Source of the DNA: a virus
Virus genome (UHGV): UHGV-1692018
Length of the DNA stretch: 19,196 nt
Direction: 5' to 3' (one strand)
This document shows positions 1 through 19,196 of this stretch, piece after piece. A model generated the notes under the pieces. That model did no database searches and had not been told where the DNA came from. It was given only the letters and a program-made list of their open reading frames with translations. A program made the translations under genes and the position numbers. Position 1 is the stretch's first letter. Every line of letters starts with the position of its first letter.

Positions 1-88
1 GGACTTCGGGGGAAAAACGAGTATTTTTAGTCATCCTGTTTACCTCTTTCTCAGGAAGTTTAGTCTCCAGGATTCCCGGGGCGGTTCA
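1..88 (-). mobile_element. Terminal 88 bp of an IS3-family insertion sequence (IS629/IS1203-like), left inverted repeat plus start of orfA; the rest of the element lies outside the window
   Basis: Bases 1-88 are the exact reverse complement of 19109-19196. Read on the minus strand the segment starts TGAACCGCCCCGGGAATCCTGGAGACTAAAC and contains ATGACTAAAAATACTCGTTTTTCCCCCGAAGTCC, translating to MTKNTRFSPEV, which I recognise as the orfA N-terminus of IS629-type elements. Identity ends abruptly at 88/89. Confidence 0.85.
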
Positions 89-248
89 CATCGCCCTTTG
101 CCTCAAGTTTCATCAATAACTCCATTCGATAAGCTATCTCTGCCTGAATTGACCTATGGCATCTTTTTGCTGATTCGCGGATATGTGAATCAACCTTTTC
201 TGTAAAACGAACCTGACGCGGCTTGATGGAAGATATCTTTTCAGTCAT
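60..248 (-). CDS. Arc/Mnt-family ribbon-helix-helix repressor, C-terminus altered by IS insertion (last ~9 residues IS-encoded)
   Basis: 62-aa ORF with AGGAG 7 nt upstream of the ATG. The stretch RQVRFTEKVDSHIRESAKRCHRSIQAEIAYRMELLMK aligns by eye with P22 Arc FNLRWPREVLDLVRKVAEENGRSVNSEIYQRVMESFKK. Codon 54 spans the phage/IS junction at 88/89, so residues 54-62 (VNRPGNPGD) and the stop are IS-encoded. Confidence 0.7.
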   Translation of the reverse strand: MTEKISSIKPRQVRFTEKVDSHIRESAKRCHRSIQAEIAYRMELLMKLEAKGDVNRPGNPGD

Positions 249-297
249 TATGCACTCCTGTTTTTAAAAAACTCATAATCTCACTTTTTGTAGTTTG

Positions 298-326
298 ATT
301 ATTCACTCACACTCAGCATGAGTCAA
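298..326 (-). promoter_or_regulatory. Candidate sigma70 promoter for the Arc-like gene (-35 TTGACT, 17-bp spacer, -10 AATAAT) overlapping ACTCA-type repeats
   Basis: Minus strand reads TTGACT (321-326), a 17-nt spacer, then AATAAT (298-303). The spacer and -35 overlap the imperfect palindrome ACTCAgcaTGAGT (311-323) and the tandem CACTCACACTCA. Confidence 0.4.
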
Positions 327-347
327 TGAATTTTTTATGGTGAACTA

Positions 348-989
348 ATGAATTTTGACGATCAATTCCCATCAAGAGTATCTCTGGCAAGACAGTCCAG
401 GGGTATGACGCAGGCGCAGTTGTCAAAATTAGCTGGTGTTGTTCAACGTCAAATAGCTGCATACGAGGGTGGTGAGGCTAAACCACGGCTTCGGGTATTG
501 CAGGCATTAGCCAACGCATTAGGTACTACAGCTGAGTGGTTAGCTCTAGGTGAAGGTCAGGGTCCGGGAACAAAAAACGTCATGCCTGACGTTCTGGTAA
601 AGCAAATACCAATCCTCAAACTAGATGAAGTTATGCATTACCTAAACACAGGTGAACATTCATCGTCTAGATTTCATCCGGCAATATACAATGTTGGTGA
701 CTCTGCATTTGCATTGACTATTGAAGGTGAAGCTATGACTACAAGTTCAGGTATTAGCTTTCCCAGAGGATCGGTTGTCACGTTCAGCCCTCTAGTAAAA
801 GCTAAAAGCAAAGATTATGTAATAGCATCATTGGATAAAGAGCAAATATTGAGCTTCAAACAGGTTTACATTGGTGAAATAGAGACAAACCTAGTATCCC
901 TAAACCCAATGTATCCTAATATTCTTGTTAGAAATGAAGATGTTAGTATTTTGGCAACCGCAGTTTACCTTGAAATCCCGTTGCTTTGA
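348..989 (+). CDS. Lambda-CI-like repressor: N-terminal XRE-type HTH plus C-terminal S24 (LexA/CI) peptidase-like domain with apparent Ser-to-Ala at the catalytic position
   Basis: 213 aa. N-terminus SRVSLARQSRGMTQAQLSKLAGVVQRQIAAYEGG resembles the 434/lambda repressor HTH. C-terminus DSAFALTIEGEAMTTSSGISFPRG ... SFKQVYIGE ... LNPMYPNI aligns with lambda CI [26 protein letters not shown] ... FKKLIRDSG ... LNPQYP; the GNSM motif appears as GEAM. Confidence 0.8.
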   Translation: MNFDDQFPSRVSLARQSRGMTQAQLSKLAGVVQRQIAAYEGGEAKPRLRVLQALANALGTTAEWLALGEGQGPGTKNVMPDVLVKQIPILKLDEVMHYLNTGEHSSSRFHPAIYNVGDSAFALTIEGEAMTTSSGISFPRGSVVTFSPLVKAKSKDYVIASLDKEQILSFKQVYIGEIETNLVSLNPMYPNILVRNEDVSILATAVYLEIPLL

Positions 990-1049
990 TATCCTTTAGG
1001 AAGCGACACATTATCATCTGGTATCCTGCTCAAAACTAAGGAGGTTGGT

Positions 1050-1238
1050 GTGAAGAAAAAATTTGTAAACGTTGCAAAGTGCGCAATTTTTATATTTTTT
1101 ATGACCTTTTACGGATTTAGTGCCGGAGAAGGTTTCGATCGTGATGCCAATGCATTCAGTTTCTTTTGTCTGTCTATAGTGGTCATAATTGTATGGGTGG
1201 AATTAAAGCAAACATTGTTTCATGTGCTAAGGAAATAA
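1050..1238 (+). CDS. Small hydrophobic protein (62 aa, two predicted hydrophobic segments), function unknown; candidate superinfection-exclusion or membrane-acting protein
   Basis: GTG start preceded by AAGGAGG at about 6 nt. Sequence MKKKFVNVAKCAIFIFFMTFYGFSA...FSFFCLSIVVIIVWV has two hydrophobic stretches. Sits in an AT-rich stretch directly downstream of the CI-like gene on the same strand. Confidence 0.5.
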   Translation: MKKKFVNVAKCAIFIFFMTFYGFSAGEGFDRDANAFSFFCLSIVVIIVWVELKQTLFHVLRK

Positions 1239-1255
1239 CCATCCATGGCATTTAG

Positions 1256-3085
1256 TCACTGCTGTGTTGCCTCAGTGGCAAGCAGCGGTCTGATGGCATT
1301 TGCAGCGTTACTTAATGCTCTTTCATAGGCTGGCGTTCCTGCTTTGGTGTTTGCCAAACGTAAGAGAGCATTCCTTGCTGCTTTTGACTCATACAAGCGC
1401 ATCATTGCACCGAAACCAGCCTCAAGCCCCATTGATACGCCAAGAGTCGCAGTTGCGCCAATCGTCCTTATCCTGTTGGCTTGCGATTGTCCTGTCTGTG
1501 TTACTACATTTGCGGCGTCCGACCTTGCTGTTTGCTGTAGAACTTCATGAAGAGCATCAAGCTCTTTCATGTGTCTCCCACTGAATATCGTGTTATAGAT
1601 CTGACCGTCAGATTGCGACTTCAACTTATTTAACTCGGTAAGAAATTTTGTTGGCGAGTCTCCTGCTTTTTCTGCAATCTTGCTGATATAAGCAGCACGC
1701 ATAGCGTTCTTTCCATCTTCACTAAGAGCTGGCCATATCCTCTTAATATCTGATGGTTTTCTGCTGAATACAACACTGTTTATTAGCTCTGGAGTAAACT
1801 CTTTTTTAGCTTTGTTGAGATTATTCGCAATCCTTTTATTAAGAACCTTATTGAAGACGTTAGAGTAGTCAGAGTTTGCCTTGACGTATCTGGCGGCCTC
1901 TCCAGCCCCCAAATACCGCGCTGCGTTATTCCTCAAATCTGCCCCCATTGCCCTCTCCACGGTATCAGTTGCGGCTTTCGCGCTATTAGGAAAAACCATG
2001 GCATCTCCCTGAATACTTTCCCTCAAGGCTGACCGCAACTCTCTCAATAGACCAAAATCTATATCTGGTTTAGCAAGTTCTTCTCGCAAATCGGATAACC
2101 CGCGAATCAAATCCTTATTTGCCACTTTCCCAAGCCTATTAGCTCTGGTAAGTACGTTGTCGATAACCTTAATAGATTTTGATGTGTCAACTGGTGTGTC
2201 TCCCATTTTGGCTGTAATGTCTTCAATAACGCTTCCGGCCGAATCCTTCCTTGACTTCAGAGAACCATACAGATCGTCAACAACAACTGATGGGCTATAT
2301 TCACCATATTTCTCAAGCTGTTTTTTAACTAGCTGACTTCTTTTTGCATACTGCTCAGCTCGCTTTGAGCCTGTCCCGAGCAAAGCCCCCTCGGCATCCT
2401 GAGTTAGGCCGCGAGTGAAAGCATTTTTCGGCGGGATAACATCAGATGTCATTGGTGTCACGCCCATCGATTCTGAGGTGGCAATTTTTTTCGCTACTTC
2501 TGGCGCGATATCGCCTTTTATAGCCGTTATTCCACGCCCTATTCCCTTTGCTGCTGCGGAAAGAACACCCTGAGCAGCAAGGTTAACTCCGGCGTTTATG
2601 GCTGCATTTTGCGCGAAATCGCCTTTCTGGTTTGCGGCTTCTGCCAGTGATCCAATAGCCATGCTTCCTGCAGTTCCAACTCCTGGAACTAAATACCCGC
2701 CAATTGTTTCTCCAGCTTGCGCATAAGGGTCTGTTGGTCGATCTACTGGACGATAGACATCGTCCAAAACCTTGTGACCACCAAGCCCCTGGCTGATTGC
2801 ATTAATCAGACTTGCGCCACCCTGCAATACGTCAAATGGTATGTTTACCAGACCACGACCAGCCTGTTCTGCAATTTGCCCTGCACTTTGACCACCAGTG
2901 AGCCAATCGCCAGCTTGTTGCATCAATGATGGTTCTTCCTGTGTTGGTGCATTATTGGCCTGATTAACTGTTTGTTGCTGAACAGCCTGACCAGCAAAAT
3001 ACTCATCAATGGCGGTGCCAATATCTTCGGTGCTCGTACCATCAGGAAAGGTAAATGTCTTACCGTTTGCAGTTACTTTCATCAT
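1256..3085 (-). CDS. Ejection (internal virion) protein, P22 gp16-like
   Basis: 609 aa, Ala/Gly/Gln-rich, last gene of the virion operon in the position of P22 gene 16, whose size I recall as 609 aa. Start overlaps the upstream gene's stop. Confidence 0.8.
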
Positions 3086-17854: not shown

Positions 17855-18367
17855 TTAAACGGTATGATATTTCATTCTGGCTGCCTCAAAAGCCGCAGCG
17901 GCAAGTTCGGCAGTGTCATGGTATCCAAGGTTAATACACTTTCCAGACGCATTAATTCTTGCTCTCCATTTCCCGTACTTAGCATCCCAAGACACGCCAC
18001 GGTATCCAGATTTATTATTCTTCTGAATTTTCCTGTTTTGCATATTTTCGGAATGAGTGACAAGACGAAGATTTGATATCCGGTTATCTGTTCTTACCCT
18101 GTTGATGTGATCAATAAAACCATCGGGCATGGTGCCATAAACAATCAACCATGCCAGTCTGTGAGCAGGGCATGCTTTACCATTAATCATAATCATTAAA
18201 TACCCATCAGAATTTATTGATGAGCATTTCTTGAAAGCAAAACGAGAGTTCCATGTCAAAGTGGTCCTCTCTCTCCCCTGCCTCCATCTCCAGTGAAAGT
18301 CGCCTGATGATGGATTGTAATCAACAACAGAAAGCACCATTTCTGGCGTTAATTTTATTTCTTTCAT
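17855..18367 (-). CDS. Free-standing HNH homing endonuclease with C-terminal AP2-type DNA-binding domain
   Basis: 170 aa. HNH motif region AHRLAWLIVYGTMPDGFIDHINRVRTDNRISNLRLVTHSEN; C-terminal AP2-like region GYRGVSWDAKYGKWRARI...GYHDTAELAAAAFEAARMKY. Confidence 0.85.
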   Translation of the reverse strand: MKEIKLTPEMVLSVVDYNPSSGDFHWRWRQGRERTTLTWNSRFAFKKCSSINSDGYLMIMINGKACPAHRLAWLIVYGTMPDGFIDHINRVRTDNRISNLRLVTHSENMQNRKIQKNNKSGYRGVSWDAKYGKWRARINASGKCINLGYHDTAELAAAAFEAARMKYHTV

Positions 18368-18554: not shown

Positions 18555-18584
18555 ATTATGGCTAAATGGCTAATTGCATGTCAA
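18555..18584 (-). promoter_or_regulatory. Candidate late promoter (pR'-like) overlapping the 3' end of the Q-like gene
   Basis: Minus strand has TTGACA (18579-18584), an 18-nt spacer containing the Q stop codon, then CATAAT (18555-18560). Predicted start is about 18548, giving a roughly 55-nt RNA ending at the 18490-18512 terminator. A -10-like element (TATGCT) lies in the initial transcribed region. Confidence 0.45.
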
Positions 18585-19080
18585 GACTTTTAACAGCAAC
18601 ATGCTTAACTTTCTCAACACGTTTACGCATTTTGAAAGCATTTTGCATTGGTTGGTACAAAACAAATAACGACGCTTTCAGGATGTCGTCAATTTCGTTT
18701 CTACAGGTTGCCATTGAAGGTTTTCTCCATCCCTCGCCACCACGTCCACACATCTTGCGTGGCTTTGCAGTCGCGTGATAGTAGGATGCAATTGCTCGCT
18801 TAGATGAACCATGAGCGTAGTAGCTGAGGAGGATGCCAAAGGCTTTTTTGTCAATGTACATGACGGAATCGACGACCTGAGAAATCAACATTCCATCATC
18901 ATCATTGCACATTGGCCTTGTCATAACTCTTCCCGGCTCTACGCTCTCCATGAACTTCGCTATTACGCTGCTCATGCGCTTTTCCAGACGACCTGAATAA
19001 ACCCATGCGCCCCACAGTTCAAGCCAGCCATTCAGCCACTCATGCTGTTCTTTGGTGAGGTTTAGTTCTCTTATGCCCAC
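18562..19080 (-). CDS. Q-like late-gene antitermination protein (QuuD/phage-82-type family, tentative)
   Basis: 172 aa, GTG start with GGAG upstream. Motifs WLELWGAW and RPMCNDDDGMLI resemble E. coli prophage Q-type antiterminators (QuuD: ERWGAW ... RPQICDDDAMII, recalled from memory). Located immediately upstream of the late promoter/terminator and the lysis cassette. Confidence 0.6.
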   Translation of the reverse strand: MGIRELNLTKEQHEWLNGWLELWGAWVYSGRLEKRMSSVIAKFMESVEPGRVMTRPMCNDDDGMLISQVVDSVMYIDKKAFGILLSYYAHGSSKRAIASYYHATAKPRKMCGRGGEGWRKPSMATCRNEIDDILKASLFVLYQPMQNAFKMRKRVEKVKHVAVKSLDMQLAI

Positions 19081-19108: not shown

Positions 19109-19196
19109 TGAACCGCCCCGGGAATCCTGGAGACTAAACTTCCTGAGAAAGAGGTAAACAGGATGACTAAAAATACTCGTTTTTCCCCCGAAGTCC
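19109..19196 (+). mobile_element. Terminal 88 bp of an IS3-family insertion sequence (IS629/IS1203-like), left inverted repeat plus start of orfA; the rest of the element lies outside the window
   Basis: Starts TGAACCGCCCCGGGAATCCTGGAGACTAAACTTCCTGAGAAAGAGGTAAACAGG, then ATGACTAAAAATACTCGTTTTTCCCCCGAAGTCC (MTKNTRFSPEV); exact inverted copy of bases 1-88. Confidence 0.85.

What the first reader, a model, noticed from the sequence alone, without database searches (positions are those of the whole stretch)
60..248. IS inserted in the last codons of the Arc-like gene, creating a chimeric C-terminus and cutting off the expected downstream antirepressor gene
Native coding runs to residue 53 (…KLEAKGD), essentially the length of P22 Arc, then codon 54 spans the phage/IS junction and nine IS-encoded residues precede the stop. 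In P22 the gene after arc is ant (antirepressor), then the tailspike; here the IS occupies that position. The insertion therefore probably uncouples or removes the antirepressor and leaves an Arc variant with a foreign tail.
Basis: partly seen in the sequence, partly recalled or inferred. Interest (0 to 1): 0.5.

Follow-up and report, generated by a model that had tools for sequence, protein, structure and literature searches.

The report
IS629 cuts prophage Arc-like gene tail
An ordinary mobile element (IS629) has landed three codons before the end of a small Arc-type repressor gene in a P22-like prophage, giving the protein a foreign eight-residue tail and separating it from the antirepressor gene that follows it in every intact relative.

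Summary
Window 1-88 is the left end of IS629, 86/88 identical to an annotated copy. The 62-aa ORF at 60-248 (-) is 54 residues of a phage protein plus 8 IS-encoded residues (NRPGNPGD). Intact relatives (14 complete E. coli genomes, phage JEP4, E. coli HS) encode a 57-aa protein ending ...KGDVVIQ. They then have a 73-bp spacer and a Bro-N/P22AR antirepressor gene, followed by two more genes, an Mnt homologue and the tailspike gene.

The small protein fails the Pfam Arc threshold. It is still a divergent Arc-type ribbon-helix-helix protein: remote relatives found with its profile pass Pfam Arc, and the Arc R31/E36/R40 equivalents are conserved.

- The native length is 57 aa, not 53.
- The divergent repressor is an HTH plus S24-like protein with its catalytic Ser replaced by Ala, not Mnt.
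- A second, inverted IS629 end closes the window at 19109-19196, just upstream of the Q gene.

What lies beyond the IS could not be recovered, so I cannot say whether ant survives. Every public contig carrying this allele breaks inside the IS. This is a routine prophage-decay event and scores low for interest.

The parts
1..88 (-). Left end of IS629: IRL, 5' UTR and the first 11 codons of orfA (ATG at 34..32). It runs off the window. It is co-directional with the Arc-type gene.
   Evidence: Sequence read. 86/88 identical to the annotated IS629 of AP012537. 98.9% identical to IS629 copies in Stx phages.
88..89 (.). Phage/IS junction. Window 89 is the last unambiguous phage base. Window 88 (T on the - strand) could belong to either the phage or the IS.
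   Evidence: Alignment to AST19 and UTAK-8. Nucleotide comparison. All megablast hits start at query position 88.
60..248 (-). Chimeric ORF of 62 aa. Residues 1-54 come from the native 57-aa Arc-type ribbon-helix-helix (RHH) protein. Residues 55-62 (NRPGNPGD) and the stop codon are read from the IS629 IRL.
   Evidence: Family assignment.
298..326 (-). Sigma-70-like promoter (TTGACT-17-AATAAT, 10/12) for the Arc-type gene. This is the Pant-equivalent.
   Evidence: The same site is present in the intact relative.
301..327 (.). 27-bp imperfect dyad (10 of 13 pairs) overlapping the -35 and -10. It is part of a cluster of four TGAGT motifs in the 99-nt intergenic region. Candidate operator.
   Evidence: TGAGT occurs 4 times against 0.18 expected. 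A dyad this good or better arose in 89 of 2000 shuffles, so on its own it is only modestly significant.
348..989 (+). Divergent 213-aa repressor (HTH_3 + Peptidase_S24-like) in the position Mnt holds in P22. The catalytic Ser is replaced by Ala.
   Evidence: Pfam, PHROG phrog_4 transcriptional repressor, alignment with LexA and lambda cI.
1256..3085 (-). P22 gp16-type ejection protein gene. It marks the upstream border of the 'ant moron'.
   Evidence: PF26808 Phage_P22_gp16 on the identical product. Annotated as DNA transfer protein in relatives.
19109..19196 (+). Second IS629 left end, identical to the first 88 bp but inverted relative to it. It is inserted in the 3' end of the ninI phosphatase gene, 28 nt upstream of the Q start (19080).

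Best explanation
What is shown. The window is the late region and the left part of the immI / 'ant moron' of a P22-like prophage. A copy of IS629 (IS3 family, 1310 bp) has transposed into the 3' end of the first gene of the antirepressor operon. That gene encodes a 57-aa divergent Arc-type ribbon-helix-helix protein. The insertion lies after gene nt 160/161, within codon 54 of 57.

Three consequences follow from the anatomy:

1. The protein keeps residues 1-54, covering the beta-strand and both helices. It loses the conserved tail V-I-Q and gains NRPGNPGD, read from the IS inverted repeat.

2. The gene and its promoter (298-326) are cut off from what follows in all intact relatives. That is a 73-bp spacer carrying a sar-like antisense unit, then the Bro-N/P22AR antirepressor gene, a second antirepressor-like gene, an Mnt homologue and the tailspike gene. 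At least 1.3 kb of IS now lies downstream of the gene.

3. IS629 points the same way as the operon. The chimeric ORF stops 25 nt before the orfA start codon, so transcripts from the immI promoter run into the transposase genes.

What is inferred.
- The chimeric protein probably still folds and represses its own promoter, because the lost residues lie beyond helix B. About 60%.
- Antirepressor expression from this promoter is abolished or strongly reduced, which helps lock the prophage in place.
- The event is a single ancestral insertion inherited clonally.
- I slightly favour a simple insertion with ant still present beyond the IS (about 55%) over an IS-associated deletion or inversion (about 40%).
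For: - IS identity and end.
- Junction position and chimeric translation.
- Native 57-aa form with a nearly invariant GDVVIQ end in about 30 cluster representatives across six genera.
- The native form occurs on 1000 or more contigs, the chimera on 24.
- ant lies directly downstream in intact relatives. Phage JEP4 also holds the uninterrupted locus.
- The same spacer and ant follow a classical Pfam-Arc gene in other prophages, so this position is the arc position.
- Arc-type RHH: best PDB profile hit is AmrZ, E=0.028. hhalign against an Arc/Mnt alignment gives E=4e-4, in register. phrog_228 Arc-like, E=0.0045. Remote relatives P0164, P0165 and P0169 found with the family profile pass Pfam Arc. 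Equivalents of Arc R13/R31/E36/R40/G49 are conserved.
- Promoter and candidate operator.
- Clonal allele in independent assemblies.
- Precedent: 62% of IS629 copies in O157:H7 lie in prophages (PMC3271280). The ant moron is described as highly variable, with an IS3 element already drawn in one prophage (PMC2629481). E. coli HS carries an independent IS3-family insertion in the same moron.
Against: - The far side of the IS was never seen. The window starts inside the IS, and every public contig with the allele ends within 110 nt of the IS end. So 'uncoupled' cannot be separated from 'deleted'.
- A second, inverted IS629 end at the other end of the window fits a rearrangement as well as it fits two simple insertions.
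- The protein does not reach the Pfam Arc gathering score. Its only Pfam hit is ParD_like, below threshold. BLASTP against P22 Arc finds nothing.
- The AlphaFold monomer model is a single long helix and is uninformative.
- The lost tail (G-x-hydrophobic-hydrophobic) is conserved even in remote relatives. The chimera may therefore be impaired.
- No experiment supports repression, polarity or readthrough into the transposase genes.
Confidence: 0.85

Rival explanations
1. The IS629 end marks a rearrangement endpoint, not a simple insertion. An IS-mediated adjacent deletion, or an inversion between the two inverted IS629 copies, has removed or relocated ant, the sar-like unit and the tailspike gene. 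The 19-kb segment would then no longer be contiguous with the rest of the ant moron.
For: Both ends of the window are identical, inward-facing IS629 left ends. In O157:H7, matching 3-4 bp target duplications were found at only 21 of 47 IS629 sites (PMC3271280), so many copies have taken part in rearrangements. Searches for the far-side junction predicted for a simple insertion found nothing.
Against: Those negative searches carry no weight. The known left junction was also absent from the same collections, and the protein look-ups needed an exact allele guess. Simple insertion is the default outcome of IS3-family transposition. The two insertion sites are unrelated sequences, each near the 3' end of a gene, as expected for independent hits.
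Confidence: 0.4
2. The insertion inactivates the small repressor. The conserved C-terminal tail is needed for stability or for dimer-dimer cooperativity, so the chimeric protein is non-functional. The remaining promoter is then held only by the S24-like repressor.
For: V55, I56 and Q57 are nearly invariant across the family. A Gly followed by alternating hydrophobic residues persists in relatives only 32-41% identical. The new tail is Pro/Gly-rich and has pLDDT below 50 in the model.
Against: The cut lies after the predicted helix B. From established knowledge, the last residues of P22 Arc tolerate substitutions and added tails (the Arc-st variants from the Sauer laboratory). The whole family is so shallow (at least 75% identity) that tail conservation is not exceptional. 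The allele has persisted unchanged in many samples without further decay of the ORF.
Confidence: 0.35
3. The junction is an assembly chimera at a repeat, and no such molecule exists.
For: The window begins and ends inside a multicopy repeat, which is typical of short-read contig ends.
Against: The identical junction appears in contigs from different studies and assemblers, extending 26 to about 140 nt into the IS. The phage/IS boundary coincides exactly with the canonical IS629 terminus TGAACC.
Confidence: 0.02
4. The 62-aa protein is the natural form of the gene, and no antirepressor gene ever followed it.
For: None found.
Against: The 57-aa form ending GDVVIQ is universal in relatives. ant follows it in every intact locus examined. 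The last 29 nt of the ORF are IS629 sequence.
Confidence: 0.01

Closest known systems
IS629 insertions in E. coli/Shigella prophages (IS3 family; Ooka 2009; Rump 2011, PMC3271280; PA2/PA8 Stx prophages, PMC10810198)
   Same: Same element, 86/88 identical over the part visible here, with the same canonical TGAACCGCC terminus. It sits inside a lambdoid or P22-like prophage, where most IS629 copies of O157:H7 lie. It truncates a gene near its 3' end.
   Different: This particular site, the Arc-type gene of an HS-1-type ant moron, is in none of 5,426 complete E. coli genomes or 50,697 phage records. The target-site duplication and the transposase genes lie outside the window.
P22 immI region (mnt - Pant - arc - sar - ant), between gene 16 and the tailspike gene 9
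   Same: Same genomic slot, after the gp16 homologue. A small RHH gene is first in an operon with an antirepressor gene directly downstream. A divergent repressor gene shares the intergenic control region. In intact relatives the spacer carries an antisense promoter and a terminator hairpin, like sar. An Mnt homologue and the tailspike gene lie further on.
   Different: The RHH protein is not detectably similar to P22 Arc by BLASTP and is below the Pfam Arc threshold. The divergent repressor is an HTH + S24-like protein with Ala in place of the catalytic Ser, not Mnt. Rfam finds no sar. Here the operon is also interrupted by an IS.
HS-1-type 'ant moron' of P22-like prophages (Villafane et al. 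2008, PMC2629481)
   Same: E. coli HS carries the identical 57-aa protein (WP_021518013.1) and S24-like repressor (WP_001008290.1), followed by ant. It also has an IS3-family element inside the moron.
   Different: In HS the IS sits in the second antirepressor-like gene, and the 57-aa gene is intact. The 2008 paper judged that this moron type lacks arc. The profile evidence here indicates the 57-aa gene is a divergent Arc-type RHH.
'Grounded' or decaying prophages inactivated by IS elements (PMC6379469)
   Same: Two IS copies interrupt regulatory junctions of an otherwise complete-looking late region: Arc-type gene/ant and ninI/Q.
   Different: Inactivation is not demonstrated. Antiterminated transcription could still cross the IS copies, so the prophage may remain partly functional.

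Membership tests
IS629 (IS3 family) | Terminal inverted repeat beginning 5'-TG...; IS629-specific IRL TGAACCGCCCCGG(G/A)AATCCTGGAGACTAAAC | tested here: met
   Window 88..1 (-) and 19109..19196 (+) match the annotated IS629 of AP012537 at 86/88, and other IS629 copies at 98.9%.
IS629 (IS3 family) | orfA start about 55 nt from the IRL, followed by orfA/orfB with a programmed -1 frameshift and a DDE transposase | tested here: inconclusive
   The orfA ATG is at IS nt 55 and the first 11 codons (MTKNTRFSPEV) are present. The rest lies outside the window.
IS629 (IS3 family) | 3-4 bp target-site duplication flanking the element | not testable with these tools
   The right end of this copy is outside the window and outside every contig recovered. 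Pattern searches for the predicted duplication found nothing, but the positive control also failed.
Arc/Mnt ribbon-helix-helix repressors (Pfam PF03869) | Scores above the Pfam Arc gathering threshold | tested here: not met
   There is no PF03869 hit. The only hit is ParD_like (also an RHH family) at 19.8-20.3 bits, against a cut-off of 23. BLASTP against P22 Arc finds no alignment.
Arc/Mnt ribbon-helix-helix repressors (Pfam PF03869) | Homology detectable by profile methods or through intermediate sequences | tested here: met
   hhalign against an Arc/Mnt alignment gives E=4e-4 (probability 34%), residues 12-43 aligned to Arc 11-42. AmrZ (3qoq) E=0.028. phrog_228 Arc-like E=0.0045. The family profile finds P0164, P0165 and P0169, which score 29-87 bits on PF03869 against a cut-off of 20.4.
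Arc/Mnt ribbon-helix-helix repressors (Pfam PF03869) | Signature residues: N-terminal beta-strand Arg, and the buried Arg31-Glu36-Arg40 triad spacing of Arc | tested here: met
   R14, R32, E37 and R41 align with Arc R13, R31, E36 and R40. G52 aligns with Arc G49.
Arc/Mnt ribbon-helix-helix repressors (Pfam PF03869) | Intertwined dimeric RHH fold that binds an operator overlapping the promoter | not testable with these tools
   The monomer AlphaFold model gives one long helix, which is expected for an obligate dimer and is uninformative. Only a candidate dyad and a TGAGT cluster are seen.
P22-type immI / ant moron | Located between the gp16-type ejection gene and the tailspike gene | tested here: met
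   The gp16 homologue is at 1256-3085. In intact relatives the tailspike gene follows the moron.
P22-type immI / ant moron | Small repressor gene immediately upstream of an antirepressor gene in one operon | tested here: met
   Met in intact relatives, where a 73-bp spacer is followed by a Bro-N + P22AR_C gene. In the window itself the downstream partner is replaced by IS629.
P22-type immI / ant moron | Divergent Mnt (RHH) maintenance repressor | tested here: not met
   The divergent gene encodes HTH_3 + Peptidase_S24. An Mnt homologue exists in relatives, but it lies downstream of ant, next to the tailspike gene.
P22-type immI / ant moron | sar antisense RNA across the ant ribosome-binding site | tested here: inconclusive
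   No Rfam family matched at gathering threshold. In relatives, though, the antisense strand of the spacer has promoter-like sites, two hairpins and a U-run, with z=-4.55. This unit would lie beyond the IS, outside the window.

The most novel reading that the evidence does not exclude
The insertion has wired IS629 to the prophage's secondary-immunity switch. The transposase genes now sit 25 nt behind the chimeric Arc-type ORF, in the same orientation. Transcription from the immI promoter, held by the S24-like repressor and the Arc-type protein, would then set transposase levels. IS629 would burst whenever that promoter is derepressed, for example on superinfection or loss of the repressors. 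Together with the second, inverted copy next to Q, this could also make the 19-kb late region an invertible or composite unit.
Probability: 0.1. Interest if true: 0.4.

Novelty: new member of a known kind. Interest (0 to 1): 0.2.

Why it matters
The main value is for annotation. The 62-aa ORF should be called an IS-truncated Arc-type repressor gene, not a novel protein, and this prophage should be flagged as IS-disrupted at two regulatory junctions.

There are two smaller points for phage biologists:
- The HS-1-type ant moron was described in 2008 as having an antirepressor but no arc. It does appear to have a divergent Arc-type RHH gene, paired with a probably non-cleavable S24-like repressor instead of Mnt. 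That is an untested variant of the P22 immI circuit.
- The identical disrupted allele circulates in many human-gut samples, so the loss of antirepressor coupling is at least tolerated in nature.

Tried and rejected
1. Recovering the far side of the IS. All of these failed:
- The junction pattern was absent from GTDB representative genomes, IMG/VR and JGI metagenomes.
- The far-side pattern predicted for a simple insertion (IRR + 2-5 nt + TTGTCATCC...) was absent from metagenomes, genomes and viral contigs. These negatives are uninformative, because the known left junction is also missing from those collections, even though a JGI contig carrying it exists (L025).
- Exact-protein look-ups of the chimera at two flank sizes returned only contigs that end within 110 nt of the IS end.
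- Look-ups of antirepressor alleles returned only intact loci, because only the longest contigs are read.
- Nine guessed IS-Ant edge products are not in the collection.
- No in-frame start codon exists inside the IS right end, so no diagnostic far-side chimeric protein can be predicted.

2. AlphaFold on the monomer gave a single helix spanning residues 10-50, so no fold search was run.

3. Rfam at gathering threshold found nothing in the window or in the intact relative, so there is no recognised sar.

4. BLASTP against P22 Arc found no alignment.

5. No complete E. coli genome carries this prophage as a whole. The best match covers 84% at 95.5% identity. The host lineage was not identified.

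6. The intrinsic-terminator-like site at 171-192 (+), inside the gene on the antisense strand, is at chance level and was dropped.

Full report
**Observation**

The ORF at 60-248 on the minus strand encodes 62 residues: MTEKISSIKPRQVRFTEKVDSHIRESAKRCHRSIQAEIAYRMELLMKLEAKGDVNRPGNPGD.

Read on the minus strand, window 88..1 is TGAACCGCCCCGGGAATCCTGGAGACTAAACTTCCTGAGAAAGAGGTAAACAGGATGACTAAAAATACTCG... This is the left inverted repeat, leader and first 11 codons of orfA of IS629. It matches 86 of 88 positions of the annotated 1310-bp IS629 in Stx2 phage WGPS2 (AP012537). It is 98.9% identical to other IS629 copies.

Every megablast hit of window 1-1300 to uninterrupted prophages begins at query position 88.

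A base-by-base comparison with E. coli AST19 shows the following:
- Gene nt 1-160 (window 248..89) are native.
- Nt 161 (window 88) is a T shared by the phage and the IS terminus.
- Nt 162 is the first base that differs.

It still encodes Val by coincidence. The stop codon lies at IS nt 27-29 (window 62..60).

**Native form and what normally follows**

Fourteen complete E. coli genomes, phage JEP4 and E. coli HS carry the uninterrupted locus at 98.5-99.7% identity.

In these, the gene encodes 57 aa ending ...KGDVVIQ. About 30 cluster representatives from Escherichia, Salmonella, Klebsiella, Serratia, Hafnia, Atlantibacter, Enterobacter and Yersinia are nearly all 57 aa, and GDVVIQ is nearly invariant among them. 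The native sequence is seen on at least 1000 contigs, the chimera on 24.

In the intact loci, the stop codon is followed by, in order:
- a 73-bp spacer
- a 208-212-aa Bro-N + P22AR_C antirepressor gene
- a second antirepressor-like gene (phrog_1726)
- a 73-aa ORF
- a convergent 84-95-aa Pfam-Arc protein that aligns along its whole length with P22 Mnt
- the tailspike gene

**Is the gene 'Arc-like'?**

By the strict test it is not:
- Pfam gives no PF03869 (Arc) hit. The only hit is a sub-threshold ParD_like match, which is another RHH family.
- BLASTP against P22 Arc finds nothing.
- PHROGs places it in phrog_10182, of unknown function.

Several independent lines still point to a divergent Arc-type ribbon-helix-helix protein:
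- A family profile against PDB sequences hits the Arc-family regulator AmrZ best, with E=0.028.
- hhalign against an Arc/Mnt alignment gives E=4e-4. Residues 12-43 align in register with Arc 11-42.
- phrog_228 'Arc-like repressor' scores E=0.0045.
- One source names a Yersinia homologue 'Arc family DNA-binding protein'.
- A profile search of 1.84 billion representative proteins finds only ten relatives. Three of the remote ones (P0164, P0165, P0169) pass the Pfam Arc threshold themselves.
- In an alignment with those relatives and P22 Arc, the equivalents of Arc R13, R31, E36, R40 and G49 are conserved.

Position agrees with this. In other prophages the identical spacer and ant gene follow a classical 57-aa Pfam-Arc protein paired with a 127-aa Arc-family (Mnt-like) protein. 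The two module types become homologous again exactly at the stop codon of the small gene.

The AlphaFold monomer model was a single long helix, so I did not use it.

**Control region and partner repressor**

A strong promoter-like site, TTGACT-17-AATAAT, lies at 326..298 on the minus strand.

It is overlapped by a 27-bp imperfect dyad at 301-327, with 10 of 13 pairs matching. A dyad at least this good arose in 89 of 2000 shuffles. The 99-nt intergenic region also holds four TGAGT motifs against 0.18 expected. These are candidate operators and nothing more.

The divergent gene at 348-989 encodes an HTH_3 + Peptidase_S24 protein. It occupies the position Mnt holds in P22. Aligned with LexA and lambda cI, it has Ala where the nucleophilic Ser sits (IEGEAMT against SGMSMK and EGNSMT). 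The catalytic Lys is kept. It is probably a non-cleavable repressor.

Villafane et al. 2008 (PMC2629481) named this variable region the 'ant moron'. They noted that the HS-1 type seemed to have an antirepressor without arc, and they marked an IS3 element in one moron. E. coli HS carries exactly this module, with an IS3-family insertion further downstream.

**Consequences of the insertion**

Shown by the sequence:
- The protein loses V55-I56-Q57 and gains NRPGNPGD.
- The gene and its promoter are separated from the spacer, and from ant if ant is still there, by at least the IS.
- IS629 is co-directional with the operon. Its orfA start lies 25 nt after the chimeric stop codon.

In intact relatives, the antisense strand of the spacer carries two promoter-like sites inside the start of ant. 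Its RNA is predicted to form two hairpins followed by a U-run, with z=-4.55. This resembles the P22 sar arrangement, although Rfam reports no match. The whole unit would lie beyond the IS.

Inferred:
- Antirepressor expression from this promoter is lost or much reduced.
- Transcripts from the promoter now enter the transposase genes.
- The chimeric protein probably still works, because the cut is beyond helix B, and (from general knowledge) the C-terminus of Arc tolerates changes. However, a Gly followed by hydrophobic residues is conserved in the tail even in relatives that are 32-41% identical. Impairment is therefore a real possibility.

**Wider context in the window**

The window ends with the same 88 bp of IS629 left end in the opposite orientation, at 19109-19196. 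This copy is inserted in the 3' end of the ninI phosphatase gene, 28 nt upstream of the start of the Q antiterminator gene.

The 19-kb block from Q, through lysis, head and ejection genes, to the immI repressor pair is thus bracketed by two inward-facing IS629 left ends. That fits two independent insertions. It equally fits an inversion or deletions between IS copies.

Ten contigs from independent ENA, JGI and Logan assemblies, mostly human-gut metagenomes, are 99.96-100% identical to the window over up to 4 kb and share the junction. This indicates a single ancestral event in a circulating lineage.

No complete E. coli genome, GTDB representative genome, IMG/VR contig or phage record holds the junction. 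No complete E. coli genome carries this prophage as a whole.

**What remains open**

Whether ant, the Mnt homologue and the tailspike gene still lie beyond the IS. All attempts to see the far side failed. The negative pattern searches carry no weight, because the known left junction is also missing from those collections.

In O157:H7, 62% of IS629 copies lie in prophages, and only 21 of 47 sites keep a matching 3-4 bp duplication (PMC3271280). A rearrangement is therefore a serious alternative. I put it at about 40%, against about 55% for a simple insertion.

**Verdict**

Biologically this is a new instance of a well-known kind of event, an IS629 insertion in a prophage regulatory module. It is of low general interest. 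The side observations on the HS-1-type immI variant are modest and untested.

Noticed in passing
window 19109-19196 (+), with 18562-19080 (-): A second IS629 left end, identical to window 1-88 but inverted. It is inserted in the 3' end of the ninI phosphatase gene, 28 nt upstream of the start of the Q antiterminator gene. The whole 19-kb late region is therefore bracketed by inward-facing IS629 left ends. This could reflect two insertions, an invertible segment or a composite unit.
   Followed up: partly
window 348-989 (+): The repressor in the Mnt position is an HTH_3 + Peptidase_S24-like protein. The catalytic Ser is replaced by Ala (IEGEAMT against LexA SGMSMK and cI EGNSMT), while the Lys is kept. 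It is probably not self-cleaving, so this secondary-immunity repressor would be insensitive to RecA. By eye, the gene has no Shine-Dalgarno sequence, and TATGGT lies 8 nt before the ATG, so the mRNA may be leaderless.
   Followed up: partly
window 249-347: Four TGAGT motifs in 99 nt (0.18 expected), and a 27-bp imperfect dyad at 301-327 overlapping the -35 and -10 of the Arc-type gene promoter. These are candidate operators for the RHH protein, the S24-like repressor or both.
   Followed up: partly
L001 5900-5996 (+), the spacer between the small gene and ant in E. coli AST19: On the strand antisense to ant there are two promoter-like sites, and the RNA is predicted to form two hairpins followed by a U-run (z=-4.55). 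This is a sar-like antisense RNA candidate that Rfam does not recognise. The IS629 insertion site in the window lies about 10 nt beyond its predicted terminator.
   Followed up: partly
L012 2200-2560 compared with L001 5880-6273: Two unrelated regulatory modules sit upstream of the same spacer and ant gene. One is a 127-aa Arc-family (Mnt-like) protein plus a classical 57-aa Pfam-Arc protein. The other is the S24-like repressor plus the divergent 57-aa RHH protein. The mosaic boundary falls exactly at the stop codon of the small gene, and both small proteins are 57 aa and end in Q.
   Followed up: partly
L040 2398-3545 (E. coli HS, NC_009800): An independent IS3-family insertion in the same ant moron, here in the second antirepressor-like gene. 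This is probably the IS3 triangle drawn in Villafane et al. 2008. The moron seems to be hit by IS elements repeatedly.
   Followed up: partly
L003-L010, L022-L028: The exact chimeric allele recurs at 99.96-100% identity in contigs from many unrelated human-gut metagenome and SRA assemblies. It is absent from 5,426 complete E. coli genomes, and the host lineage is unidentified. One indexed contig is 22.8 kb, longer than the IS-to-IS distance, so the second IS may be absent in some carriers.
   Followed up: partly
L001 3973-4227 (+) and L002 3948-4235 (+): The 84-95-aa 'Arc family' gene just upstream of the tailspike gene aligns with P22 Mnt over its whole length, including SKPSPV(S/T)GYR and the C-terminal helix. 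These prophages therefore carry an Mnt homologue downstream of ant, convergent with it, in addition to the S24-like repressor.
   Followed up: no
window 17855-18367 (-): An HNH_3 + AP2-domain endonuclease gene lies between Q and the lysis genes. Some close relatives have tRNA-Thr and tRNA-Asn genes in this position instead. No tRNA gene is found in the window.
   Followed up: no
window 1050-1238 (+): A 62-aa hydrophobic ORF (phrog_21338, unknown function) lies between the gp16-type gene and the S24-like repressor. Other P22-like prophages carry sieA or other moron genes in this slot.
   Followed up: no
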